Source of the DNA: Heptranchias perlo | Lineage: Eukaryota | Length of the DNA: 64,000 nt | Reading direction: 5' to 3' | NCBI RefSeq assembly: GCF_035084215.1 | Contig: NC_090353.1 | Coordinates: 14,942,001 to 15,006,000, forward strand | Shown: piece after piece, positions 1-40,566 of the stretch | How the letters are laid out: the number at the start of each line of letters is the position of its first letter | Position numbering within the stretch: the stretch's first letter is position 1 | Notes under the pieces: model-generated | Told to the model about the DNA's origin: nothing | Databases searched by the model: none | What the model saw: the letters and a program-made list of their open reading frames with translations, nothing else | Translations under genes and position numbers: made by a program

Positions 1-1854
1 ATCAGTCAGAGCCTGTGGAACCGTACCCCAGGATCAGTCAGACTCTGTGGAACTGTACCCCAGGATCAGTCAGAGCCTGTGGAACCGTACCCCAGGATCA
101 GTCAGACTCTGTGGAACTGTACCCCAGGATCAGTCAGAGCCTGTGGAACTGTAACCCAAGATCGGTCAGAGTCTGTGGAACCGTACACCAGGATCAGTCA
201 GACTCTGTGGAACTGTACCCCAGGATCAGTCAGAGCCTGTGGAACCGTACCCCAGGATCAGTCAGACTCTGTGGAACTGTACCCCAGGATCAGTCAGAGC
301 CTGTGGAACCGTACCCCAGGATCAGTCAGACTCTGTGGAACTGTACCCCAGGATCAGTCAGAGCCTGTGGAACCGTACTCCAGGATCAGTCAGACTCAGT
401 GGAACTGTACCCCAGGATCAGTCAGAGACTGTGGAACCGTACCCCAGGATCAGTCAGACTCTGTGGAACCGTACTCCAGGATCAGTCAGAGTCTGTGGAA
501 CCGTACTCCAGGATCAGTCAGACTCTGTGGAACCGTACTCCAGGATCAGTCAGAGTCTGTGGAACCGTACCGCAGGATCAGTCAGAGTCTGTGGAACTGT
601 ACCCCAGGATCGGTCAGAGTCTGTGGAACCGTACTCCAGGATCAGTCAGACTCTGTGGAACTATACCCCAGGATCAGTCAGAGTCTGTGGAACCGTACCC
701 CAGGATCAGTCAGAGTCTGTGGAACTGTACCCCAGGATCAGTCAGAGTCTGTGGAACCGTACCCCAGGATCAGTCAGAGTCTGTGGAACCGTACCCCAGG
801 ATCAGTCAGCGTCTGTGGATCCATACCCCAGGATCAGTCAGAGTCTGTGGAACCGTACCCCAGGATCAGTCAGAGCCTGTGGAACTGTACCCCAGGATCA
901 GTCAGACTCTGTGGAACTGTACCCCAGGATCAGTCAGAGCCTGTGGAACTGTACCCCAGGATCAGTCAGAGCCTGTGGAACTGTACCCCAGGATCAGTCA
1001 GACTCTGTGGAACTGTACCCCAAGATCAGTCAGAGCCTGTGAAACTGTACTCCAGGATCAGTCAGAGTCTGTGGAACCGTACCCCAGGATCAGTCAGACT
1101 CTGTGGAACCGTACCCCAGGATCAGTCAGACTCTGTGGAACTGTACCCCAAGATCGGTCAGAGTCTGTGGAACCATACCCCAGGATCAGTCAGACTCTGT
1201 GGAACCGTACTCCAGGATCAGTCAGAGCCTGTGAAACCGTACTCCAGGATCAGTCAGAGTCTGTGGAACCGTACCCCAGGATCAGTCAGAGCCTGTGGAA
1301 CCGTACCCCAGGATCGGTCAGAGCCTGTGGAACCGTACCCCAGGATCGGTCAGAGCCTGTGGAACCGTACCCCAGGATCAGTCAGACTCTGTGGAACCGT
1401 ACCCCAGGATCAGTCAGCGTCTGTGGAACTGTACCCCAGGATCGGTCAGAGCCTGTGGAACCGTACCCCAGGATCGGTCAGAGTCTGTGGAACCGTACCC
1501 CAGGATCAGTCAGACTCTGTGGAACCGTACCCCAGGATCGGTCAGAGCCTGTGGAACCGTACCCCAGGATCGGTCAGAGTCTGTGGAACCGTACCCCAGG
1601 ATCGGTCAGAGTCTGTGGAACCGTACCCCAGGATCGGTCAGAGTCTGTGGAACTATACCCCAGGATCAGTCAGACTCTGTGGAACCGTACCCCAGGATCA
1701 GTCAGACTCTGTGGAACTGTACCCCAGGATCAGTCAGAGCCTGTGGAACCGTACCCCAGGATCAGTCAGACTCTGTGGAACTGTACCCCAGGATCAGTCA
1801 GAGCCTGTGGAACCGTACCCCAGGATCAGTCAGAGTCTGTGGAACCGTACACCA
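1..1854. repeat. 32-bp minisatellite, ~58 copies in window, truncated by window start; unit GGATCAGTCAGA(GC/GT/CT)CTGTGGAAC(C/T)GTACCCCA
   Basis: Directly visible tandem array with strict 32-nt period; the unit lacks + strand stops, giving periodic ORFs in all three frames. Confidence 0.98.
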
Positions 1855-2734: not shown

Positions 2735-4510
2735 GATAACAACCTGCATTTATATAGTGCCTTTAACATAGAAAACATCCTTGGGCTCTTCACAGAAGAC
2801 AAACGGATGCTGAGCAGCAATAAAAGAGTTAGGATAAATGACCAGGAGCATGGTCGAATAGGTTGGTTTTGAGGATGCTTTTGAAGTGGAGAGAGATGTA
2901 GCAGTGCAGTAGGTTTAAGCGAGAGTTTCAAAGAGTTAGGATGATGGCTGATGCCTCTGCCAGCGATGGTGCAGTGTAAGGAGGTGGGGTTCCTCAGGAG
3001 GATAAAACAGTAAGACCAAAGAGCACAGGCTGGGACAAGGGGATGAAGGATTTGAAGAGGGAATATGGTGAGTGATTTGTGCATGACGTCAAGGATTTTA
3101 AATTAATCACACCTGGAAACAGGGAGCTAATGGAAATCTATGAGGATGGGAGTAATGGGCAAGTGAGACTCAATGCAGGTCCAGACGCAGAGTTGGAGTT
3201 TGGTGAAGCTCGAGAGGCTGATGAGGATGCAACTGGTGAAGTCAAGTCTGGAGGTAACAAAAGTGTAGATAACAGTTTCAGCAGCAGTGAGGGTGAGATA
3301 AGGGCAGAGGCAGCCAACATTGCAATGGTAAGAGTATGCAGTGTTAATGATGGATGGGTTGTAGGGTTTGAGACATAGCTCAGGATTAAACAGGACACTG
3401 GGGTTTTGCAGCACCTGAGCAAACAGCTGGGATGGAGCATAGCAATGGGGGCATCGGAATTGAGTTTTTGCTGGAAGCTGAATAAGATAGCTACAGTCAT
3501 CGCTATGTTCAAATGGAGAACATTCACAACTTGACGTCAGACAGGGAACACAGAGATGGCTGTGAAATTGAGGGAAGTGGTGGAGAGGTAGTGTTGGGTG
3601 TCATCAGCATATGGTGAAGCGGACGGAAACTGACCAATTTTCAATACACAGGCATGAGCATAGGTATAAGGTCGTTAAGGAACAAGTAAATGAGGGAAAG
3701 GAGACCAAAGATGGCTGTGTGGGGTGGGAAGAGAAGCCGTTGCTGGATTTATGCTGGCTAAGTTGGGACAAGTGGGAGAGGAACCGCGTGAGGGTGGTCC
3801 TGTGGAATTGAACCATGAACAAGAGGCAATAGGGGAGGATCGGATGTGTCAAATGCCTTAGAGAGGTCAAGCAGGACAAGGAACAATAACACACCATGAT
3901 CGCAATCACATAGGATGTCATTGGTGATCTTGAGCAGCATAGTCGGTGAGCTGTGGGCAGGACAGACGCTGGACTAAAGATATTCAAACCGAATTGTGAG
4001 AGAAGTTGGGTACAATGACCTTAGAGAGGAAAACGAGGTTAGAGATGGGCCTGTAGTTAGAGAGAAGAGAGGGGTCAAGGATGGGGCTTTTTGAGGAGAG
4101 GACAGTTTTGATGGGGAGGAGAACAATGGCTGTGCAAAGGCAGCTATTAGCGATGTCAGCAAACACTGGGGCAAGGAATCTTACAACACCAGATTATAGT
4201 CCAACAGTTTTATTTGAAAACTAAAACTGTTGGACTATAACCTGGTGTTGTAAGATTCCTTACATTTGTCCACCCCAGTCCATCACCGGCATCTCCACAT
4301 CTTGGGGCAAGGAAAGATAGTTAAATGATCAGGAGTTGGGTGGGTAGGGGATCGAGAGAGCAGAAGCTGGGCCCACAAAAGAGATGAGACTAAAGAAGGT
4401 AACATGGGAGATGGGGGAGAAGTAAGAGAACAGAAGGAGTGAGGGAGGGGATGAGCACGTCAAGGATGAAGAAGGAGGAGGCAGCAGCTGAGGCAGCCAT
4501 GCAGATCGCA
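2735..4510 (-). mobile_element. Decayed L2-clade LINE (RT region and 3' end), interrupted by a PLE insertion
   Basis: Minus-strand peptides LSNYRPISNLVFLSKVI and LLKITNDILCDCDHGVLLFLVLLDLSKAFDT; 3' tail aaggcactatataaatgcagg shared with DeuSINE tails. Confidence 0.85.
4179..4302 (+). mobile_element. Penelope-like 3'-end mini insertion with fold-back (subfamily B); no hammerhead core
   Basis: TSD tggggcaaggaa at 4167-4178 and 4303-4314; inverted arms 4173-4212/4222-4261; ends in catcaccggcatctccacatc like the GIY-YIG copy at 11.3-12.1 kb. Confidence 0.88.
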
Positions 4511-11340: not shown

Positions 11341-11358
11341 GATGACACCACCCACCAG

Positions 11359-11733
11359 GTGCATGGTTCATACTCCTGTGACTCGGCCAACGTTGTCTAC
11401 CTCATACGTTGCAGGAAAGGATGCCCCAGAGCATGGTACATTGGCGAGACCATGCAGACGCTGCGACAACGGATGAACGGACACCGCGCAACAATCGCCA
11501 AACAGGAGGGTTCCCTCCCAGTCGGGGAACACTTCAGCAGTCATGGACATTCATCCACCGACCTTCGGGTAAGCGTACTCCAAGGCGGCCTTCGAGACAC
11601 ACGACAACGCAAAATCGTCGAGCAGAAATTGATAGCCAAGTTCCGCACCCATGAGGACGGCCTCAACCGGGATCTTGGGTTCATGTCACGCTACACGTTA
11701 CCCCACCAGCGAACAAATGTTATCTGTTTTTAA
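11359..11733 (+). pseudogene. PLE GIY-YIG endonuclease domain, open but lacking the upstream RT
   Basis: VVY...YIGET, catalytic R, E and GLN motifs; no RT upstream. Confidence 0.9.
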
Positions 11734-11976
11734 TATAATGGGTCATTTGCTGGCTCTCTCTGCCTTCCGGATGTTTCTGCCTCTCTCTGTTTTTTTTCTC
11801 TGTTTTTTTTCCCTGTTTGTTTTTTTGTTGAATGTGTATTCAGGGGTTCTGCAGGTGACACCTCTCTGTCTGAACACGGTGATTGCCTTGGCAACGGGCA
11901 GTTGCAGGGGCAGTCTGTAAACACCATGTATTGTTCTATATGTATAAATGCGTAGGCTTCAAGGAGCTCCTGAAAC

Positions 11977-12017
11977 ATTTACCTGAGGAAGGAGGAAGTC
12001 TCCGAAAGCTTGTGAAT
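11977..12017 (+). ncRNA. Minimal type-I hammerhead ribozyme motif
   Basis: AUUUAC-CUGAGGA-A-GGAGG(AAG)UCUCC-GAAA-GCUU-GUGAAU: stem I, core, stem II, palindromic stem III. Confidence 0.8.
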
Positions 12018-12859
12018 TTAAAATAAAATTGCTGGACTATAACTTGGTGTTGTAAAATTGTTTACAATTGTCAACCCCAGTCCATCACCGGCATCTCCAC
12101 ATCATGTTTACCAATAAAGACATCGTGGCAGCAGTGCTCAGCCATGAATAAAGTGAAATGGAATTAAATTACCAAAGTGCTGTTGTAGAATTATATGGTT
12201 AAATGGTGCTCCCCAGCTCGGAGCCTCACCTGCTGGGAGCAAACCTCAGGAAATTGTGAGCAAAACCTTGGGCTGCATGAGTGGAGTTTCCAGATACACA
12301 CTCCCGGTGGGCGCGGCTCCGTGACGGGAACACGCCATTGAGAAATTTACCCTCGCGTTATTCCTAAACCATGAGCACTTCTCCTGGATCCATTTTCTGA
12401 CTCTGTCTCGTAATACTATTTAGGGCCGTGATAAAGGTTAAAGATTTGCTTAAGCGAGTTTAAGATTTTCAATTTGCTTTTTCAAATTAGCCTGTCTCCT
12501 TATTATGATTATCTTGCCATGTGCCTACCCTAACACATATATATAAAACTGAGGGAGATTACAGTTCGAAGAAAGAGAAGTTAATTTTTCCTATTTTTTA
12601 TGTGGCAGTGGACTGTTTTTTTGAAAAACCTGCCTTGGTGTTTGTTTTATTTCTCTGTGTGTTTCTCCCCCCACCCCCCAATTCCCAAAGGCCCTGACTC
12701 TCAATGGGAAATGGTTTCCAAAGACTTCCGGTACCTCACCCAAGGGGCCACTCCATAGTGAGTATAGAGGCAATTTGACTGTGAAGAGGCATCACAGCCG
12801 AGACGGATCCTGTCCCCACCAGATTTCCACACAGACACAATTCCCACTGGGACGACGGG

Positions 12860-13140: not shown

Positions 13141-13284
13141 AAAGTGTGGGGTGATCTTAAGAGCAGGGATCAGGTTCGTACCCTTGATTCTTTGCGTGAT
13201 GTGGAGATGCCGGTGATGGACTGGGGTTGACAATTGTAAACAATTTTACAACACCAAGTTATAGTCCAGCAATTTTATTTTAAA

Positions 13285-13323
13285 TTCACAAGCTTTCGGA
13301 GGCTACCTCCTTCCTCAGGTGAA
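13285..13323 (-). ncRNA. Minimal type-I hammerhead motif, minus strand
   Basis: Exact reverse complement of 13329-13367. Confidence 0.8.
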
Positions 13324-13328
13324 CGATG

Positions 13329-13367
13329 TTCACCTGAGGAAGGAGGTAGCCTCCGAAAGCTTGTGAA
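13329..13367 (+). ncRNA. Minimal type-I hammerhead motif, plus strand
   Basis: UUCAC-CUGAGGA-A-GGAGG(UAG)CCUCC-GAAA-GCUU-GUGAA. Confidence 0.8.
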
Positions 13368-13697
13368 TTTAAAATAAAATTGCTGGACTATAACTTGGTG
13401 TTGTAAAATTGTTTACAATTGATTCTTTGCGTTTAGCTGATCTAAGCTGAAGCAGCATAAGAGTGCTACATTAACCTCAGTGCCCCTGAGTGCCCCTACT
13501 TCCAATTGTTAACCAGTGACCCCTGCTGGAAATTATGTGTGGACGTCAGGTGAATACAGGATTGAGCTTGGTTGCGATGCCTTTAACTGAATAGCCACAT
13601 CGCACTCACTGTGAAGCCTCATATATGGGGGATGGGCAGTTGCAGAAGGTACCAGAATGCAACTGCGCCCATGGAAAAGTCAACACCTTCAGGAGAG

Positions 13698-13832
13698 GAT
13701 GTGGAGATGCCGGTGATGGACTGGGGTTGACAATTGTAAACAATTTTACAACACCAAGTTATAGTCCAGCAATTTTATTTTAAATTCACAAGCTTTCGGA
13801 GGCTTCCTCCTTCGTCAGGTGAACAATGTGAA
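13698..13832 (-). mobile_element. PLE 3'-end mini insertion (subfamily A), not folded back
   Basis: Same tail and pLTR sequence; TSD aggagagga at 13691-13699 and 13833-13841. Confidence 0.9.
13785..13823 (-). ncRNA. Minimal type-I hammerhead motif, minus strand
   Basis: UUCAC-CUGACGA-A-GGAGG(AAG)CCUCC-GAAA-GCUU-GUGAA. Confidence 0.8.
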
Positions 13833-13979
13833 AGGAGAGGAGGGGCGGGGACATGAGAAAATTAGAGGGGGGGATCGCAGCTTCCTTTTTTTGGTCACCG
13901 CCCACCTTCGCTGGCTGGAGATGGTCTGTGTGAGACTGAGTGGAAAAACTGCAACCAGAAAAAGTGGCAGAAGAGCTGA

Positions 13980-18750: not shown

Positions 18751-20296
18751 AGATTCCTCAGGCTACAAATTAAAATCTCACCCCCAGGATTTACCCAATA
18801 TTGGCAGCGAGGGATGGAACAGGTAAGGATGGAAGGCGAAAATACCAGCCACCCACTAATGGTGGGTTCTCAAAATTAAGCTGCCTGTACAGAACATGCC
18901 TCTGATGGAAAGAGCACCATTAGAGAAGCACCAGGAGGGGATTCTGGTTGCTTGGTGCAGGTGTGACAAAGACAAACAGCTGCCAGCAGCAGTGGCCAGT
19001 AAGTTGGTTTCACCATCTTGGATCTGACTACAGGGAAGCCGAGCTCCCAGTCTGCCCATACAGGCCAATAATGTGGTTTCATCATTGGTGCCTTGTACAG
19101 ATCTTCCATCTCCAATAGGGAAGGGCAGATTGCCAAGAATGTGAACTTTGAACTGACCGCACATGAGTTTACAACCTCTAAGCAAGTGCGTCAATCTTGT
19201 GCCTGTGCAGTCGTTCCCTTGCTGCTGGATCCACCCATCAGGGGCAGACTTGGCAGTGGCAGAGCTGGTTTAGTTGAGCCTGTGGTGCTCAAATGCCACA
19301 AATGCAACTTTCCCATTCTGGGCGTGGGCCCAATCTCAAGGGAAGGTCCTGCGGTCCAGCCAAGTTACAATCACTGCACCTGCCTGTATGGGCCGGCTGA
19401 CAGCTTCCCCTAAAGTGTTTGCTGTGCCTCCAGAGGCAGTACTGTTCCCAACGGCAACATAAAGAGACAGAGGCGGCCACGTTTTCTGACCATCAGTGGG
19501 CTGAGGAACTCCAGCTGTATGGGACAGTAAAACAGTCTCGTCCCATAATGGGTTAGTGCCTTCAGAAGAGGGAAGGAAAAAAAGAGAGATGAAATGGGGG
19601 AGGAGGAGATTAAAATAAAACATGTTTTTTTTTCATTACAGAGAGAAATTGAGAAGAAATGAAAGAGAGAGAGACAGAGAGTCAATGACAGTCACCGCTG
19701 TTCCAGTTTATTATAATTTGAAGCTATTTGAAGAGGAAATGAAAAGACTAAAGCAGGTCAGTTAAAATGCATTGCGGTCCTATGCTGCAGGCTGGTATCC
19801 CCTCCTGCGAAAATTGACAAACAAATATAGCCGAGCAATCATCTATGTAATGGTCACAAAAAGCAATTGGTGACACTTCGAGAGAGACAAGAAACATTCA
19901 ACGATTGTCAGCAAAAAAACAAAAGAGTTTCTTTTAACAATTTCGATTTAAAATCAATTTCAGTTTTGTCAGGTCAATAAATGGAAAAGCGCAGGTGTTC
20001 AGGTTATAGGGTCTACGTTTGCCTCGCCATCTGTCAGCTGTAACTGTGTCAATTCCATGACCCATCAATGATTCACTGGATTTCCCCAATACTTCCTCCC
20101 ATTATATTCTGTTCCTGTTGGAAATGTATTTTATTTTCCCCGGGGTCTGTCCCCCTTCAATTGGTCCGATAGGGATTGGAGCCACACTGGTAAAGAAAAA
20201 TCGTAAAGCAGCACTGGATGGTCCCATGCCTCCATGTGATTGCCGCATTCCACCCCCGCCCCCCCACAACCCACAATATCAAAGCACCCAAACATT

Positions 20297-20467
20297 GATG
20301 TGGAGATGCCGGTGATGGACTGGGGTGGACAAATGTAAGGAGTCGCACAACACCAGGTTATAGTCCAACAGCTTTATTTGAAATCACAAGCTTTCGGAGC
20401 TCCGAAAGCTTGTGATTTCAAATAAAGCTGTTGGACTATAACCTGGTGTTGTGCGATTCCTTACATT
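20297..20467 (-). mobile_element. Palindromic PLE mini insertion (subfamily B), folded inside hammerhead stem II
   Basis: Arms 20332-20399/20400-20467 (1 mismatch), centre cggag|ctccg; TSD cacccaaacatt at 20285-20296 and 20468-20479. Confidence 0.92.
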
Positions 20468-25578: not shown

Positions 25579-27233
25579 ACAAGGCAATTTACTTGTACTT
25601 CTTCCAACTTGGCATACTGTATTCGCTGCTCACGATGCGGTCTCCTCTACATGTGGGAGACCAAACGCAGATTGGGTGATTGCTTTGCTGAACACTTCCA
25701 TTCAGTCCGCAAGCGTGACCCTGAGCTTTTGGTTGTTAGCATCCTACTCCCACTCTGACCTCTCTGCCCTCGGCCTCCTACACTGTTCCAGTGACGCTCA
25801 ATGCAAGCTCGGGGAACAGCAGCTCATCTTTCGATTAGGCACTTTACAACCTTCTGGCCTCAACATTGAGTTCATCAACTTTAGATCATAACCACCGCTC
25901 CCATTTTCTCGGACAGCTGATGCTGGTAATGGTTACATTTATTCCTCCTCTGGACCCATCTTTTCATCTCTTTATTGTCCCATTATCACCCCCACTTGCC
26001 TTGGACCATCATCCCTTTTGTCATTTAATCACTCCTGCCTTCCCCCCTATCACAGACCTTCCCTTTTGTCTTTCCTTCCCCTCTCCCCCTTTTCTCTGGC
26101 CCTGTACTTGCTCATAAACGGTTAAATCTCTAAATTCTTCCAGACCTGAAACGTTAACTCTGTTTCTCTCTCCACCAAAGTTGCCTGACCTAGAACCATG
26201 GAACCATAGAAAAGATACAGCACAGAAGGGGGCCATTTAGCCCATCGTGTCCACACCGGCTCGAAGAGCAACCAGGTGCCCATTCTAATCCCACCTTCCA
26301 GCATCCGGTCCGTAGCCCTGCAGCTTACAGCACTTTAGATGCAGGTCCAGGTACTTTTTAAAAGAGTTGAGGGCCCCTGCCTCTACCACCAATTCGGGCA
26401 GTGTTCCCTCTAATCCTTCCGCCAATCAGCTTAAATCTATGCCCTCTAGTTCTTGAACTCTCCGCTAGGGGAAACAGGTACTTCCTGTTTACTCTATCTC
26501 GGCCCCTCATAATTTTGTACACCTCAATCAAGTCTCCCCTCAGCCTCCTCTGCTCTGAGGAAAACAACCCCAGCCTATCCAATCTCTCCTCGTAGCTGCA
26601 ATTTTTAAGCCCTGGCAAAATTCTTGTAATTCTTCTCTGCACTCTCTCCAGAGCAATTACGTCCTTCCTGTAATGTGGTGACCAGAACTGCGCACAATAC
26701 TCCAGCTGTGGCCTTACCAGCGTTTTGTATAGTTCCATCATTACATCCCTGCTTTTGTATTCTCTACTTCGGCTAATAACGGAGACCATTCCGTATGCCT
26801 TCTTCACAATCTTATCTACCTGTACTGCCACCTTCAGGGACCTGTACACATGCACTCCAAGGTCTCTCACTTCCTCTACCCCTCTCAATATATTCCCGTT
26901 TACTGCGTATTCCCTTTTACTGTTTGCCCTCCCTAAGTGCATTACCTCACACTTCTCCGGGTTGAATTCCATTTGCCACTTTTCCGCCCACTCCACCAAC
27001 CCGTTGATATCTTCTTGGTGTCTACAGCTATCCTCTTCACTATCAACTACACAGCCAATTTTTGTGTCGTCTGCAAATTTGCCAATCATGCCCCCTACAT
27101 TCAAGCCCAAATCATTAATATATACCACAAACAGCAAGGGACCCAACACTGAGCCCTGTGGCACACCACTGAAAACGGATTTCCATTCGCAAAGACCTGC
27201 TGAATGTTTCCAGCATTTTCTGTTTTTATATCA
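25579..27233 (+). mobile_element. Decayed PLE (second family), GIY-YIG to 3' end, with nested CR1
   Basis: FTCTSSNLAYCIRCSRCGLLYMWETKRRLGDCFAEH; EQQLIFRLGTLQPSGLNIEF; probable TSD ggcaaa(c/t)agg at 25569-25578 and 27234-27243. Confidence 0.85.
26192..27193 (-). mobile_element. CR1 LINE, RT C-terminal half plus 3' UTR
   Basis: ORF 26358..27164(-): PQGSVLGPLLFVVYINDL...KFADDTK...WQMEFNPEKC...LVRPQLEYC; flanked by duplicated gacct. Confidence 0.96.
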
Positions 27234-34070: not shown

Positions 34071-34436
34071 GATGTAAAGAAGACCTTGACTCACTCAGTC
34101 TGATTCCAGACTCTAGTGTTGACATTTGCAAGTAGACACCATGGGGGTTAAATTGGTTAACCCCCGAAAATGGGCGCGGGGATCGCGGTGCGCGATTAAC
34201 TCGCACCGGTTGTCAAGATGCAGGCGGAACGTAACATTTGTGTTGTTTGCTAATCTGCATGATTGCTGCGTGCAGCCTGCACTACCTGCACTGTGTGGAT
34301 GCACGCACCAGCAGGAGGCCCTGATATCGGGAGCGGCTAACACTACTTCAAGGCAGCCTGCACTTCTTAAAGGGGAGGTGCTCTGTGGCTGCAGGAAGTG
34401 GTGTGAAGTGATTTGTGGGCTGGAAGATATTGAGGA

Positions 34437-36313
34437 ATGGCTGTGCCTGCGAGAGAGCGTGCACCAAGATTCTCAGAAGGTGCACTGGAGGCCTTGGTGG
34501 AAGAGGTGGACAGATGGAAGGGCATCCTATATCCGCAGGGGGACAGGAGGCCCTCCAGACACATGCTGAAGAGGCAGTAGGAGGCTCTGGCGATGAGGTC
34601 AATGCCAGGAACATCACTCCATGCACATGGATGCAGTGCAGGAAGAAGTTCAATGATTTGACACGAGTGGTCAAGGTGAGCACATTCAACTGTCAAGTGG
34701 CATCTTCTACCAACTGCACCACTAGCCTCATCCACTGCTCCGCGCACTACATCCCCCATCACCCACCTACCAACAAACTCTTTCAGTCAGTACGCAACCC
34801 TGCGAATCAGATGCTACACTCGCCCTCACACATTACCACTCTTACAAGCCGCACACCCACAATTCACAGGTCACACACGCTGGCAGCTATTCAACCACGA
34901 CAGCCACATCTCCCAAACATCTTGCAGGACTCTCACGGACACACTTCCCTCTTTCTTGCAGGAGAAGATGGCGTATAACAGGAGGCAGCAGGAAAGACCT
35001 GGGGGAGAACAGGCCTGCCTACACGTCCTCACCCCCGTGGAGGACACCGTGCTGGCGATCATTGGGCGTTCTTTCACTGCGGCCGTGACCATTGGTGGTG
35101 CTGGAGGGATCGATGATAAGGGTCTCTGCATACCTAATCCTCCTTCTCGCTTCCCACTTCTCCCGCAGCCCACAACCTTCGTTGACTCACATGCTGCAGA
35201 TGGTGTGAACACGCACTTCTTACTTTCTCCTCTCCTCTCCCCTCACCACAACCCAACCCGTGTCCCTTTGTCATTTCAGATACCCAAGAACTGGAACCTT
35301 CCCAGTCAGAGGAAGAAGACAGTGATGATGCAGACACACAGTCACTCGATCTTACACTCGCAGCCACCAGCTCAGAGACTGACACTGCTTGTAGTTTAGA
35401 GACTGGGATAGACGAGGGATCTGCACATGGTGCGACACTGGGAATATGTGCGCAGGAGCCGGGGCAGGGGAGAACGGATACCGCAGGTGCCAGCTCGCCA
35501 GAGGACAAGGTCGTACACCAGTTCTGCTGCCGAGGAGTCAGATGATGACTTTGATGGGCCAGGCTACAGAAGAAGGCTGATGGGTGTATACAACCAAATG
35601 CTTGGTGCACTGGAAAGCCTGCGCACAATGTCAAGGGGCACGGAGGAGTCCAGCTCCAACTTGGCACAGGGCTTTGCACAGAGTTTGGAGCCCATCCTTT
35701 CCCACATGGAACGGGTGGCCACCTCCATCAGCGCAGCTGTGGAACCCACTATGATGCAACGCCTGATGACTGATGTCTCCGCTTCCAATGCAGCACAAAC
35801 AGCTGCCATCAAAGGTCTGCATGCTTCATTTGGAGCTCATACTGCTGGTTTGGAAGCTCAGACTGCTGCTAGTGTGGCTTAGGATACCATTGTGAAACGG
35901 GGCTTCCAGGGCGTCAAAGCACTGCAGCAATCTGTTCTCCAGCTGATCACCAGGAGTGCTGAGGCGCCGCCCGGGGAGATGGCGTTATGGGAGATGAACC
36001 TGCTGTCCTCTCTCAAGATAACAGCATTCCTGCTCCCAGCCCTGCCACTCTGCCAGTGATCTTGCCATTGCCTGTCAGCCAGCCAGGCCAGACTGCTGCA
36101 GCCCAGGCCAAGATGGTGCAGCCTGCAGCTGGGCCCTCCCGGCCCAGAGCTGCTCAAGGTCGTCCTCCAAGGCCATCTGCACTCTCCTCCATTGAAGGTC
36201 AGCAGCCTTCCACCTCCCATGCTCCAGCCATTGGGGATGCACCTCGTAGGAGCACTAGGATAGGTAAAGGCACACGAACAACAGGCACTAAGGGAATGCA
36301 CAAGGGTGAATAG
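34437..36313 (+). pseudogene. Harbinger Myb/SANT-like DNA-binding protein; ~3 exons (34437-34675, 34962-~35121, ~35280-36313), disrupted
   Basis: MAVPARERAPRFSEGALEALVEEV...WMQCRKKFNDLTRVVK|gtgag ... ttgcag|EKMAYNRRQQERPGG..LTPVE; in-frame stop and frameshifts. Confidence 0.8.
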
Positions 36314-36479
36314 TCTCCTTTTGTTTGCTTTATTGCATATGTTAATTGATAAATTTGGATTCATATTTGGTGTTGGCTTTCGTTTCTGCGATGAGCTGAG
36401 GGCGGACGCAATGTGTCATGTGGGAGCGGAAAGGTAAGGAGTGTGGGACTGTTGGTGAATGGGGAGGTGTCCTTGAGGT

Positions 36480-37594
36480 TACTGGTATCTCTCATTCATA
36501 ATCTGATCACGCAGAGCCCTGGCAGACAGGGCTTGTCTACCTTGTTACCTCCCTGCTGCACTTCCTCTGCCTCTGTCTCCACCTCTTCCTCTGGTTTAGG
36601 TTCTTACCTGATAGGCGGTGGCAAGGGTTGTTCCCTCATAATGGCCAGGTTGTGCAGCATGCAGCATACAACAACAAATCTTGATATCCACTCAGCTGAG
36701 TACTGCAGGGCTCCTCCAGAGCGGTCCAGGCAGCGGAAGCGTTGTTTGAGGACGCCGATGGTACGCTCGATGATGTTCCATGTGGCAGCATAACTCTCAT
36801 TGTACGCCTGTGGTGCACGTGTGTGTACGTTGCTGACCAGAGTCATGAGACACTTCATGAGGGGATAACCCTTGTTGCCCAGTAGCCAGCCTTTGACTTG
36901 CCATGCTGGTTGAAATATAGGTGGCACGTTGGACTGCCGCAGAATGGAGTTATGACTGCTGCCATGATGGCAGGCATTGACCAGCATGATGCGCTGCCTG
37001 TGCACACCAGCTGCACATTGAGGGAGTGGAATCCCTTTCTGTTCGTGAATGTGGCCAAGTTCTGATGTGGAGCTCGCATAGCCATATGCATATAGTCAAT
37101 GGTACCCTGCACCACGGGGAAGCCTGCAATGCGAGCAAACCCTCGTGCTCCTGCTGCTTGACTCCGTGAAAAGGGAAGGTAATGAATCTGTTTTGGAGTG
37201 TTAGTGACCTCCCGTATGCAGCAGTGCACTGCAAACTCCGAGATTTTGCTTATATCGGCAGCAGTAGCCTGAAAGGAACCAGAGCCGTGAAAGTTAAGCG
37301 CCACAGTTACCTTGACAGCCACAGGCAATGCTGTCCTTGCCCTGCTTTGTGGCTGCAGCAGTTGACAAATCTCCGTCACGACCTCTTTGGTGAACCGCAG
37401 CCGTCGGATGCACTGGTGAAGTTGAGGTAAGAGAATTGGTCCCTGAAGGCCCTCTTTGGACATGGCCTCCTGCTGAGTGCCCTGTGCCTCCTCCTCCTTC
37501 CCCCTCTTCTGGCAGCTTGTCCTGCTCTACGTGGCCTCTCTGCATGCTCCCAGTCATGTTCAATTCCCAGAGGAAGCCGTAGCTGGCCACCCAT
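36480..37594 (-). pseudogene. Harbinger (HARBI1-like) DDE transposase, frameshifted
   Basis: RLRFTKEVV, AGFPVVQGTIDYMH, NRKGFHSLNVQLVC, WLLGNKGYPL (catalytic D replaced by N), IERTIGVLKQRFRCLD, CCMLHN spread over three frames. Confidence 0.93.
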
Positions 37595-39190: not shown

Positions 39191-40065
39191 GCAGCTACTT
39201 ACTTGACCGGGTACACTTCAGTCTAAATGCTAAAAATCCCAGGAACACTTACTTACATGTTGAGAGTTCAAATAGGTCCACTGTAGTGTGCCAGCTGGAT
39301 CAGCATCAAACAGCCTCGTTATGGCCCTGGTAATTGCTCCACTGTGGGTGGACAGACCAATACAAATCACCAGTGTGCTATCTTTCTTTCTTTTCTTTTT
39401 GTTTAATGTTCCCAATTCGGGCTGAACTTCAGTTTAATCGGAACTTTTCCCTGTTGCCTTGCGCTATATCAAATTTGATCCCGTGTGGCTAATTGTGTTT
39501 TGACTGTTCAAGGCATGCTGGCACAGGCCAAGAAGGAAGAGGCTTTGTAATTCTTGAGCTTTCAGAGGCATTCAAATTGCTCTGGTGCTGTGTAATGTTT
39601 GAAGATAATTGCACTACTTTGTAAAAGAATTCATGGCAGGAAACTGCAGACGGTTGAATCAACATGGGATGCCCTCGCCTGAAAGTGATGACTCTTAATG
39701 GGGTACAGTTCTTTAGGCACCAGTAACACCCTTAAATGGCCGTTCTTCATGGGTAAGCCTCAACAGCGAGTGCTGGGAGGCTGTTCTACAGCATTGTTAC
39801 AATCGCAATCATGCCCTCTACCAAGATTCACACTTGCCCACTTTCCAGCAAAAGTCACTGAATAGTAATCAGGAGTAGAAGCCCTGTCTGATTTCCTCAC
39901 ACCTCCCCAGCCCAGAGGGAGCAGAGTCCTGACTTGAGATTGACTAACTCAGCACAGACGGGCAATCTTATACAGCTCAGTTTCACATTGGACTGTTACT
40001 TTGCCAGTTGACAATTGTAAACAATTTTACAACACCAAGTTATAGTCCAGCAATTTTATTTTAAA

Positions 40066-40104
40066 TTCACAAGCTTTCGGAGGCTACCTCCTTCCTCAGG
40101 TGAA
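40066..40104 (-). ncRNA. Minimal type-I hammerhead motif, minus strand
   Basis: Exact reverse complement of 40120-40158. Confidence 0.8.
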
Positions 40105-40119
40105 CGATGTGGCACATCG

Positions 40120-40158
40120 TTCACCTGAGGAAGGAGGTAGCCTCCGAAAGCTTGTGAA
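40120..40158 (+). ncRNA. Minimal type-I hammerhead motif, plus strand
   Basis: Identical to 13329-13367. Confidence 0.8.
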
Positions 40159-40566
40159 TTTAAAATAAAATTGCTGGACTATAACTTGGTGTTGTAAAAT
40201 TGTTTACAATTGTCAACCCCAGTCCATCACCGGCATCTCCACATCATGTTTGCCAGTTGAGGCAGCAGAATAGTTATCCTGATGGTTTCTGAGTGAGATT
40301 ACCAAGTTAGAGCTGAACTAGTGGCAATTTAGTGTGGGGGCTCACAGCTACTAGTGATTGGGTTGAGAATGGTCACAGTCATTGGATTGACCCACAGGCC
40401 CAGAGGTTAGAGGGCATTGTTCTAAGACACTGTCCTATTGGTCTACTTGCTAAGGACTGTGATTATCTACTTGAAAACGTGTTTTGGCAGAAAAAAATGT
40501 TCCCGTGTTCTCTCCAGTACTCTCCTCCTGAAGATGCTGTTACTCACTCAGTCATGCTGCAAGGTG

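What the first reader, a model, noticed from the sequence alone, without database searches (positions are those of the whole stretch)
13198..13432. Palindromic Penelope-derived mini-elements carrying a hammerhead ribozyme on each strand
Seen: this insertion and the one at 40012-40248 are TSD-flanked, ~220-240 bp, with perfect 94-bp and 105-bp inverted arms. Each arm contains UUCAC-CUGAGGA-A-GGAGG(UAG)CCUCC-GAAA-GCUU-GUGAA or its complement, so either transcript polarity encodes a hammerhead. The two loci are identical over the shared arm. Established: PLEs carry minimal type-I hammerheads in their pLTRs and often show inverted 5' truncation. Inference: the product is a tiny ambisense, rod-forming, ribozyme-bearing unit. 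Its full-length RNA would lock the ribozyme in duplex, while a transcript starting near the loop would release it. It could be a by-product of PLE insertion or a non-autonomous family (retrozyme-like). The different loops (GAT versus GATGTGGCACATC) favour independent formation at each insertion.
Basis: partly seen in the sequence, partly recalled or inferred. Interest (0 to 1): 0.8.

Follow-up and report, generated by a model that had tools for sequence, protein, structure and literature searches.

The report
Back-to-back Penelope retroelement leader copies
The two hairpin-shaped insertions are real, but they are two of a great many stubs left by a Penelope-like jumping gene whose mirror-image centre differs from copy to copy, and their ends suggest that each likely forms when both cut DNA ends copy the same short RNA leader and the two copies are joined back to back.

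Summary
Both palindromes, their TSDs and a minimal hammerhead motif on each strand are confirmed (locus 2's loop is 1 nt, not 13). They are not a self-propagating ribozyme unit. The arm is the pLTR of a Penelope-like element (901-aa RT/GIY-YIG frame in this genome); the same head-to-head design runs from 0.2 to 6 kb. Among 33 sampled mini-palindromes there are 32 different junctions. Locus 1's junction occurs 99 times, but with the tail on either arm (35:34) and on three haplotypes, so it recurs de novo. Arm 5' ends stop sharply at an initiator-like A 29 nt after a TATA motif; in a sister subfamily the edge follows the TATA, not the hammerhead. No scored locus has two tails (0 of 103), zero-loop junctions are common, and the arms usually share one haplotype. 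Best reading: both target nicks prime reverse transcription at the two known start sites on one RNA, run off its 5' end and are joined head to head. Fold-back remains a rival. The architecture is published, and this scan noted similar stubs in other genomes; I found the mechanism in none of my searches. No usable RNA data.

The parts
13184..13197 (+). Locus 1 left TSD (14 bp)
13198..13230 (-). Locus 1 PLE 'tail' (33 nt; the end of the pLTR up to the ORF start codon), present on this arm only
13231..13324 (-). Locus 1 left arm (tail-bearing; reaches reference q2979)
13285..13323 (-). Minimal type-I hammerhead motif, minus strand
13325..13327 (.). 3-nt centre; junction explained by a 2-nt microhomology; 99 exact copies of the junction in the genome
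13328..13421 (+). Locus 1 right arm (tail-less; q2984-3077)
13329..13367 (+). Minimal type-I hammerhead motif, plus strand; predicted scissile bond between 13362 and 13363 (inferred from hammerhead numbering, would need a dimer)
   Evidence: PMC4209133
13419..13432 (+). Locus 1 right TSD; its first 3 nt also match the element
40000..40011 (+). Locus 2 left TSD (12 bp); its last 5 nt also match the arm
40007..40111 (-). Locus 2 left arm (tail-less), with the hammerhead motif at 40066-40104 (-)
40112..40112 (.). 1-nt centre; this junction has 6 exact copies in the genome, this one included
40113..40217 (+). Locus 2 right arm (tail-bearing), with the hammerhead motif at 40120-40158 (+)
40218..40248 (+). 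Locus 2 tail, ending in the ORF start codon
40249..40260 (+). Locus 2 right TSD
13698..13833 (-). Single-arm copy of the same family (variant hammerhead); begins 2 nt inside the putative transcription start
11341..12108 (+). Longer 5'-truncated copy of the family with the C-terminal endonuclease-region frame and pLTR
20291..20465 (.). Palindrome of a sister subfamily whose junction lies inside hammerhead stem II, so no complete motif remains
4171..4304 (.). Palindrome of a sister subfamily joined downstream of the hammerhead, with no motif

Best explanation
These are dead-end insertion products of an endonuclease-bearing Penelope-like retroelement, with junctions that differ from copy to copy, and each likely forms when both cut ends of the target prime reverse transcription on the element's short 5' leader and the two copies are joined head to head. 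Shown: the arm is the element's pLTR; palindromes of all sizes exist; junctions recur independently; arms stop at a sharp 5' edge; no scored locus has two tails. Inferred: (1) the enzyme, predicted in print to be a dimer, makes a staggered cut of about 12 nt. (2) One 3' end primes at the tail end and the other about 35 nt further in, the two start sites reported in vitro, usually on one RNA, with the trailing copy displacing the leading one. (3) Priming at the transcript's upstream pLTR gives run-off cDNAs of about 100-140 nt that end at the transcription start; priming at the downstream pLTR gives the long forms. (4) The two cDNA 3' ends are joined by 0-3 nt microhomology or untemplated bases, and gap filling gives the palindrome. 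The two hammerheads are passengers, and a read-through RNA would lock them in duplex. Odds: made anew at insertion about 0.95; edge = transcription start about 0.75; two primed cDNAs rather than fold-back about 0.6.
For: Partner: a 901-aa frame with RVT_1 (E 3e-10) and a weak GIY-YIG match (E 3e-4, below the curated cut-off); its pLTR is 99% identical to the arms. De novo: 32 junctions in 33 loci; the GAT junction has the tail on one arm in 35 and on the other in 34 of 83 loci held (14 unclear), on 3 haplotypes. 5' edge: 71 of 116 arms start at q2973-2985 and only 4 in the 42 nt upstream; q2973 is an initiator-like A 29 nt after a TATA motif; 605 copies have a non-templated base before it. In a sister subfamily the A lies 6-7 nt instead of 17 nt before the hammerhead core, TATA stays 30 nt upstream, and 21 of 22 short arms start at +1 to +8. 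Two cDNAs: polarity B cannot be copied from the tail-bearing cDNA; in 20 of 43 long pairs the tail-less arm holds >50 nt that the tail arm lacks; zero-loop junctions at self-complementary dinucleotides number 62 and 38, close to about 50 per polarity for the 3-nt-loop junction; microhomology is equal at both ends (mean 1.63 nt each, n=89). One RNA: 0 of 103 scored loci have two tails, about 22 expected if the ends chose independently; arms differ in 3 of 81 against about 30 expected. In vitro, a relative cleaves and extends both strands and starts at two sites that bracket the tail (PMC11167929).
Against: No RNA or biochemical data: the transcription start is inferred from motifs and copy ends only. 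Haplotype concordance and the excess of pairs whose arms end within 50 nt of each other (10 of 39 against 2.3 expected) fit fold-back equally well. Zero- and 1-nt loops could also arise by fold-back after untemplated additions. The tail-less arm is longer in 20 pairs against 10, which is not significant (p=0.10). A few pairs differ at several shared sites (L061, L065, L098, L290), which needs two RNAs, template switching or gene conversion and is not strictly 'one RNA'. A cap-derived G is only suggestive: 46 of the first 100 hits (hand count), but 0 of 7 apparent single-arm copies. PMC11167929 saw no strand difference in start-site use. Samples are the first hits on the largest contigs; 16 of 119 loci could not be scored.
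Confidence: 0.55

Rival explanations
1. Fold-back (self-priming): one cDNA, or an antisense RNA, snaps back and is copied into the second arm; the endonuclease then trims one tail as the hairpin intermediate is resolved. This is the interpretation in print.
For: Proposed in PMC3846280 (self-priming on an antisense template) and, for the tail, EN-mediated resolution in PMC8557442. Arms are haplotype-concordant (2.8% discordance at recurrent sites within loci against 21% between loci). Arms often end close together. The tail-less end sits at an AT-rich palindromic hexamer that resembles the cleavage preference in PMC11167929.
Against: Fold-back of a tail-primed cDNA allows only polarity A, but 34 of 69 are B, and the tail-less arm is the longer one in 20 of 30 unequal long pairs. 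Saving the model needs a free two-tailed hairpin, yet 0 of 103 loci keep two tails, and both ends show equal microhomology to the target. There are 100 zero-loop junctions at two sites. An antisense template does not explain a stop at the sense initiator.
Confidence: 0.3
2. A non-autonomous, self-propagating palindromic ribozyme element (ambisense, retrozyme- or viroid-like) mobilised in trans by the PLE enzyme.
For: The same junction recurs 99, 62, 38 and 6 times. The RNA would form a rod with a hammerhead motif on each strand. Non-autonomous PLE derivatives exist (bioRxiv 10.64898/2026.07.22.740005; PMC8557442).
Against: It would need separate masters for each junction, polarity and haplotype (at least 6 for the GAT junction alone); 32 junctions in 33 loci. 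The commonest junction tested is only a few per cent of the estimated copies. Sister copies in the window lose the ribozyme at the junction. There is a size continuum up to 6 kb. The promoter motif lies outside the mini-element. No clean head-to-tail array among 326 loci held.
Confidence: 0.04
3. The sharp 5' edge is a reverse-transcriptase stall or an RNA end set by the hammerhead fold (stem I edge), not a transcription start.
For: The edge lies next to the hammerhead in both subfamilies, within about 1 nt of stem I in the sister one. An earlier AI note (e1-9807999, unchecked) read a similar edge in another genome this way.
Against: In this subfamily the edge is 11 nt upstream of stem I and about 45 nt upstream of the predicted cleavage site; between subfamilies it keeps its distance to TATA (29 and 30 nt) and not to the core (17 against 6-7 nt). 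The bases before the edge are not AG, so a splice acceptor as in Drosophila Penelope is unlikely (sequence).
Confidence: 0.1

Closest known systems
EN+ Penelope-like element insertion unit: pLTR, adjacent inverted 5'-truncated copy and one-sided 30-40 bp tail (PMC3846280; PMC8557442; passages read)
   Same: Head-to-head inverted pLTR, tail on one side only, TSD, palindrome at the junction, TATA and initiator-like motifs in the pLTR.
   Different: Here the unit is reduced to two leader copies (about 230 bp). Those passages explain it by self-priming and EN resolution; the copy data here favour two primed cDNAs and run-off at the initiator.
Poseidon PLE of Anolis, in vitro (PMC11167929; main text read)
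   Same: RT with C-terminal GIY-YIG, minimal hammerhead in the pLTR, two RT start sites bracketing the tail, both strands cleaved and extended, dimer predicted.
   Different: Its ORF starts inside the hammerhead and RT starts 111-118 nt into the ORF; here the tail ends at the start codon. The passages I read do not link two-strand priming to the inverted structure. Clade assignment of this element was not tested by a tree.
Minimal type-I hammerheads of metazoan PLEs (PMC4209133; results and discussion read)
   Same: Extra nucleotide before helix II, palindromic 2-nt helix III, G10.1-C11.1 pair; paired motifs 100-700 bp apart on opposite strands were already noted in Schistosoma.
   Different: The paired motifs here are 5-15 nt apart. 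Activity is untested; a published monomer of this type was inactive.
Non-LTR retrozymes (bioRxiv 10.64898/2026.07.22.740005; first part and passages read)
   Same: PLE-derived, non-coding, type-I hammerhead.
   Different: Retrozymes are head-to-tail tandem units with same-strand hammerheads; these are head-to-head with one motif per strand.
L1 twin priming (recalled, not read here)
   Same: Both target strands prime on one RNA and give an inversion joined by microhomology.
   Different: In L1 the two cDNAs cover different RNA segments; here they would cover the same segment, giving a perfect palindrome.

Membership tests
EN+ Penelope-like element | Single ORF with RT and C-terminal GIY-YIG endonuclease in an autonomous partner | tested here: met
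   901-aa frame in L061: RVT_1 E 3e-10; GIY-YIG E 3e-4, 21.4 bits, just below the 22.6 cut-off
EN+ Penelope-like element | pLTR carrying a minimal hammerhead, overlapping the ORF start in tandem copies | tested here: met
   window arms 99% identical to the partner's pLTR
EN+ Penelope-like element | Inverted 5'-truncated copy and a one-sided 30-40 bp tail, flanked by a TSD | tested here: met
   95 of 103 scored loci have one tail, 8 none, 0 two; TSD mode 12 bp
Penelope/Poseidon clade | RT phylogeny; no zinc-finger linker | not tested
   No tree was built and no reference proteins were fetched
Minimal type-I hammerhead ribozyme | Conserved core, helices I and II, palindromic helix III | tested here: met
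   Rfam models did not detect it
Minimal type-I hammerhead ribozyme | Self-cleavage, as a dimer or with protein help | not testable with these tools
   No raw reads available
Non-LTR retrozyme | Head-to-tail tandem units, each with a hammerhead | tested here: not met
   Both window loci are head-to-head; among 326 loci held, 9 same-strand neighbours with irregular junctions and no clean array
Non-LTR retrozyme | Circular or unit-length RNA | not testable with these tools
   Only contig runs whose RNA status is a guess
Self-propagating palindromic (MITE-like or SINE-like) family | Copies descend from one master with a fixed junction and polarity | tested here: not met
   32 junctions in 33 loci; polarity 35:34 on 3 haplotypes

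The most novel reading that the evidence does not exclude
Penelope-like elements integrate by two-ended target-primed reverse transcription. A dimer primes both target strands at two fixed sites about 35 nt apart on one RNA, and the two overlapping cDNAs are fused head to head. This one mechanism would explain the inverted pLTR, the one-sided tail and the mini-palindromes, which would be fused run-off ('strong-stop'-like) copies of the capped leader that mark each family's transcription start.
Probability: 0.45. Interest if true: 0.7.

Novelty: new member of a known kind. Interest (0 to 1): 0.42.

Why it matters
As elements, these are ordinary debris of a known retroelement class. Their value is as a large natural record of how PLEs insert. 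PMC8557442 calls the origin of the tandem/inverted structures undefined, and PMC11167929 leaves the steps after priming unvalidated. The copy statistics here (both polarities, never two tails, zero-loop joints, an edge that follows the TATA motif) give predictions that the existing in vitro system can test directly. They also warn that paired opposite-strand hammerheads and long perfect hairpins in such genomes need not be ambisense replicons or miRNA genes.

Tried and rejected
DNA search of the genome with the arm found nothing because common words are skipped; exact patterns were used instead. Rfam gave no hammerhead hit, only sub-threshold miRNA matches on two sister palindromes. Sequencing runs: no RNA holder listed; four contig-only runs of one sample, RNA status a guess, cover the element but cannot show starts, strand or cleavage; one contig there had a 126-nt head-to-tail joint, not followed up. 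A cap-derived extra G was tested and is inconclusive. A splice acceptor as the 5' edge was rejected: no AG before it. A leading/trailing asymmetry in long pairs was tested and is not significant (20:10, p=0.10). Rows left out: 16 of 99 GAT loci were not fetched; 23 of 38 and 47 of 62 zero-loop loci were not fetched; 13 of 56 long loci were dropped as single-armed, complex or unmatched (listed); ten duplicate windows. The empty-site test on reads, protein trees and structure or dimer predictions were not run. Look-up of earlier findings by sequence returned nothing.

Full report
Observation. Both insertions are as described. Locus 1 has perfect 94-bp arms around a 3-nt centre and a 14-bp TSD; locus 2 has perfect 105-bp arms around a 1-nt centre and a 12-bp TSD. 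They are identical over 133 nt and oppositely oriented. Each has a 30-35 nt extension on one arm only. A minimal hammerhead descriptor of my own finds 6 motifs in the window, four of them in these loci, and none in 30 Markov controls; Rfam does not detect them. The single arm folds helices I and II; the whole element folds as a rod that hides both motifs. The window holds four more relatives: two single-arm copies and two sister-subfamily palindromes whose junctions remove the motif.

Source element. The 42-nt hammerhead core occurs 5,750 times exactly in this 3.25-Gb genome, a one-base variant 7,540 times, and a sister-subfamily motif 5,258 times. I fetched all loci of the first 100 hits. Opposite-strand pairs are always head to head and range from 2 bp to 5.4 kb apart. 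L061 holds a 901-aa open frame with RT and a weak GIY-YIG match; the window arms are its pLTR at 99% identity, and the tail ends at the ORF start codon. Coordinates q refer to this natural copy: core at q2985, tail end q3110. The sample held 33 mini-palindromes with two motifs, which extrapolates to roughly 1,500-2,000 for this subfamily. The taxon was not established here.

Not a propagating unit. The 33 loci have 32 different junctions. Locus 1's junction occurs 99 times and locus 2's 6 times. Of 83 GAT loci held, the tail is on one arm in 35 and on the other in 34, on both in none, and 14 are unclear; the junction sits on three hammerhead haplotypes; TSDs peak at 12 bp; tail-less ends cluster at q3072-3077 (46 of 69) and each abuts its own TSD. 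One master cannot give this. The junction recurs because a 2-nt microhomology is available there.

Why they are this size. Of 116 arms in the sample, 71 begin at q2973-2985 (34 at q2973-2975), 4 in the 42 nt upstream, 31 run far upstream and 10 begin further in. q2973 is the A of an initiator-like motif with a TATA motif starting 29 nt before it (motif consensus recalled). 605 copies have a non-templated base directly before this A. In a sister subfamily the spacer to the hammerhead core is 10 nt shorter, TATA is 30 nt before the equivalent A, and 21 of 22 short arms start at +1 to +8, one at -3; 4 further arms are long (a few rows are rough calls at rearranged junctions). The edge therefore follows the promoter motifs, not the ribozyme. 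TATA and initiator-like motifs in a pLTR were noted in rotifer PLEs (PMC3846280), whereas Drosophila Penelope has a TATA-less internal promoter (PMC2377424, passages). I infer that the arms are run-off cDNAs from the RT start in the transcript's upstream pLTR to the RNA 5' end. An extra G, as a cap would give, is enriched (46 G, 42 A, 12 T in the first 100, counted by hand), but it is mostly also explained by the opposite arm and is absent from 7 apparent single-arm copies, so it is not relied on.

How the second arm is made. Fold-back of a tail-primed cDNA requires the tail arm to contain the other arm. Polarity B breaks this, as do 20 of 43 long pairs in which the tail-less arm reaches more than 50 nt further upstream; the tail arm is longer in 10 and 13 are within 50 nt. 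Junctions with no loop at self-complementary dinucleotides number 62 and 38; two cDNA ends can anneal there with no added bases, while a single strand cannot. Overlap between TSD and element averages 1.63 nt at both ends (n=89; about 0.4 expected by chance, and my best-match search may inflate it). Of 119 loci from four junction classes, 103 could be scored: 95 have one tail, 8 none and 0 two, against about 22 expected for independent ends. Arms share a haplotype in 78 of 81 GAT loci (about 30 discordant expected), and long pairs differ at 2.8% of recurrent sites against 21% between loci, with 0.6% private differences. The simplest single scheme is two primers at two fixed sites on one RNA. 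It matches the in vitro results for the Anolis element: both strands cut and extended, two start sites bracketing the tail, a predicted dimer, and hammerhead cleavage not needed for insertion (PMC11167929). Against it: concordance and the excess of near-equal ends (10 of 39, permutation mean 2.3) fit fold-back as well; short loops could come from untemplated additions; several pairs differ at two or more shared sites; that paper saw no strand preference for start sites; no RNA evidence exists.

What is known. The inverted pLTR with an optional one-sided tail and junction palindromes is described in PMC3846280, which proposes self-priming on an antisense template, and in PMC8557442, which attributes the tail to endonuclease resolution (passages seen for both). 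Minimal hammerheads and opposite-strand pairs are in PMC4209133 (results and discussion seen). Retrozymes are head-to-tail (bioRxiv 10.64898/2026.07.22.740005, first part and passages seen). Searches for two-ended priming or run-off at the transcription start in PLEs listed no such paper; the library lacks most subscription journals, I did not read the older PLE reviews, and I opened no supplements (those of PMC11167929 may bear on start-site use). Four unchecked notes of this scan describe similar stubs in other genomes, three of them as made anew or ordinary; I read them after forming and testing my reading.

Verdict. Real, young, abundant and of a known kind; not an ambisense ribozyme replicon. 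The added value is a testable account of PLE insertion. Interest 0.42.

Noticed in passing
window 1-1854: 32-bp satellite array, 58 copies, 91% matches; it runs off the window's start.
   Followed up: no
window about 34400-37530: Open frames on both strands that look like a PIF/Harbinger-type transposon (nuclease-like on minus, Myb/SANT-like on plus); label from recall of the translations, not searched.
   Followed up: no
window 26358-27230 (-) and many target sites in fetched loci: Fragments that look like CR1-type LINE reverse transcriptase (recalled label); many PLE stubs sit inside them.
   Followed up: no
L015, L019, L027, L028, L190: Extra same-strand short units next to a palindrome, again starting a few bases inside the putative transcription start; L019 also has repeated pieces that begin at the predicted hammerhead cleavage site. 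They may record template jumps or cleaved RNA.
   Followed up: partly
G000:C34:28163661-28163772: Two zero-loop junctions 82 nt apart, suggesting a multi-arm array.
   Followed up: no
L069 and L070 (G000:C1:15.59 and 15.60 Mb): The same tail-less palindrome with the same flanks 12 kb apart, probably a local segmental duplication.
   Followed up: no
L061:945-1070 in run X1: One contig has a 126-nt head-to-tail joint of the leader unit, which a shared 7-nt repeat at both ends of the leader could produce; tandem DNA or circular RNA cannot be told apart.
   Followed up: no
junctions in L082, L084, L088, L089, L102: Untemplated A/T runs at the arm 5' ends, as if RT stutters on the U run at the RNA start.
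   Followed up: partly
first 100 hits: The variant subfamily has few close pairs and many long pairs or single matches compared with the window's subfamily; age or exact-match loss may explain it.
   Followed up: partly
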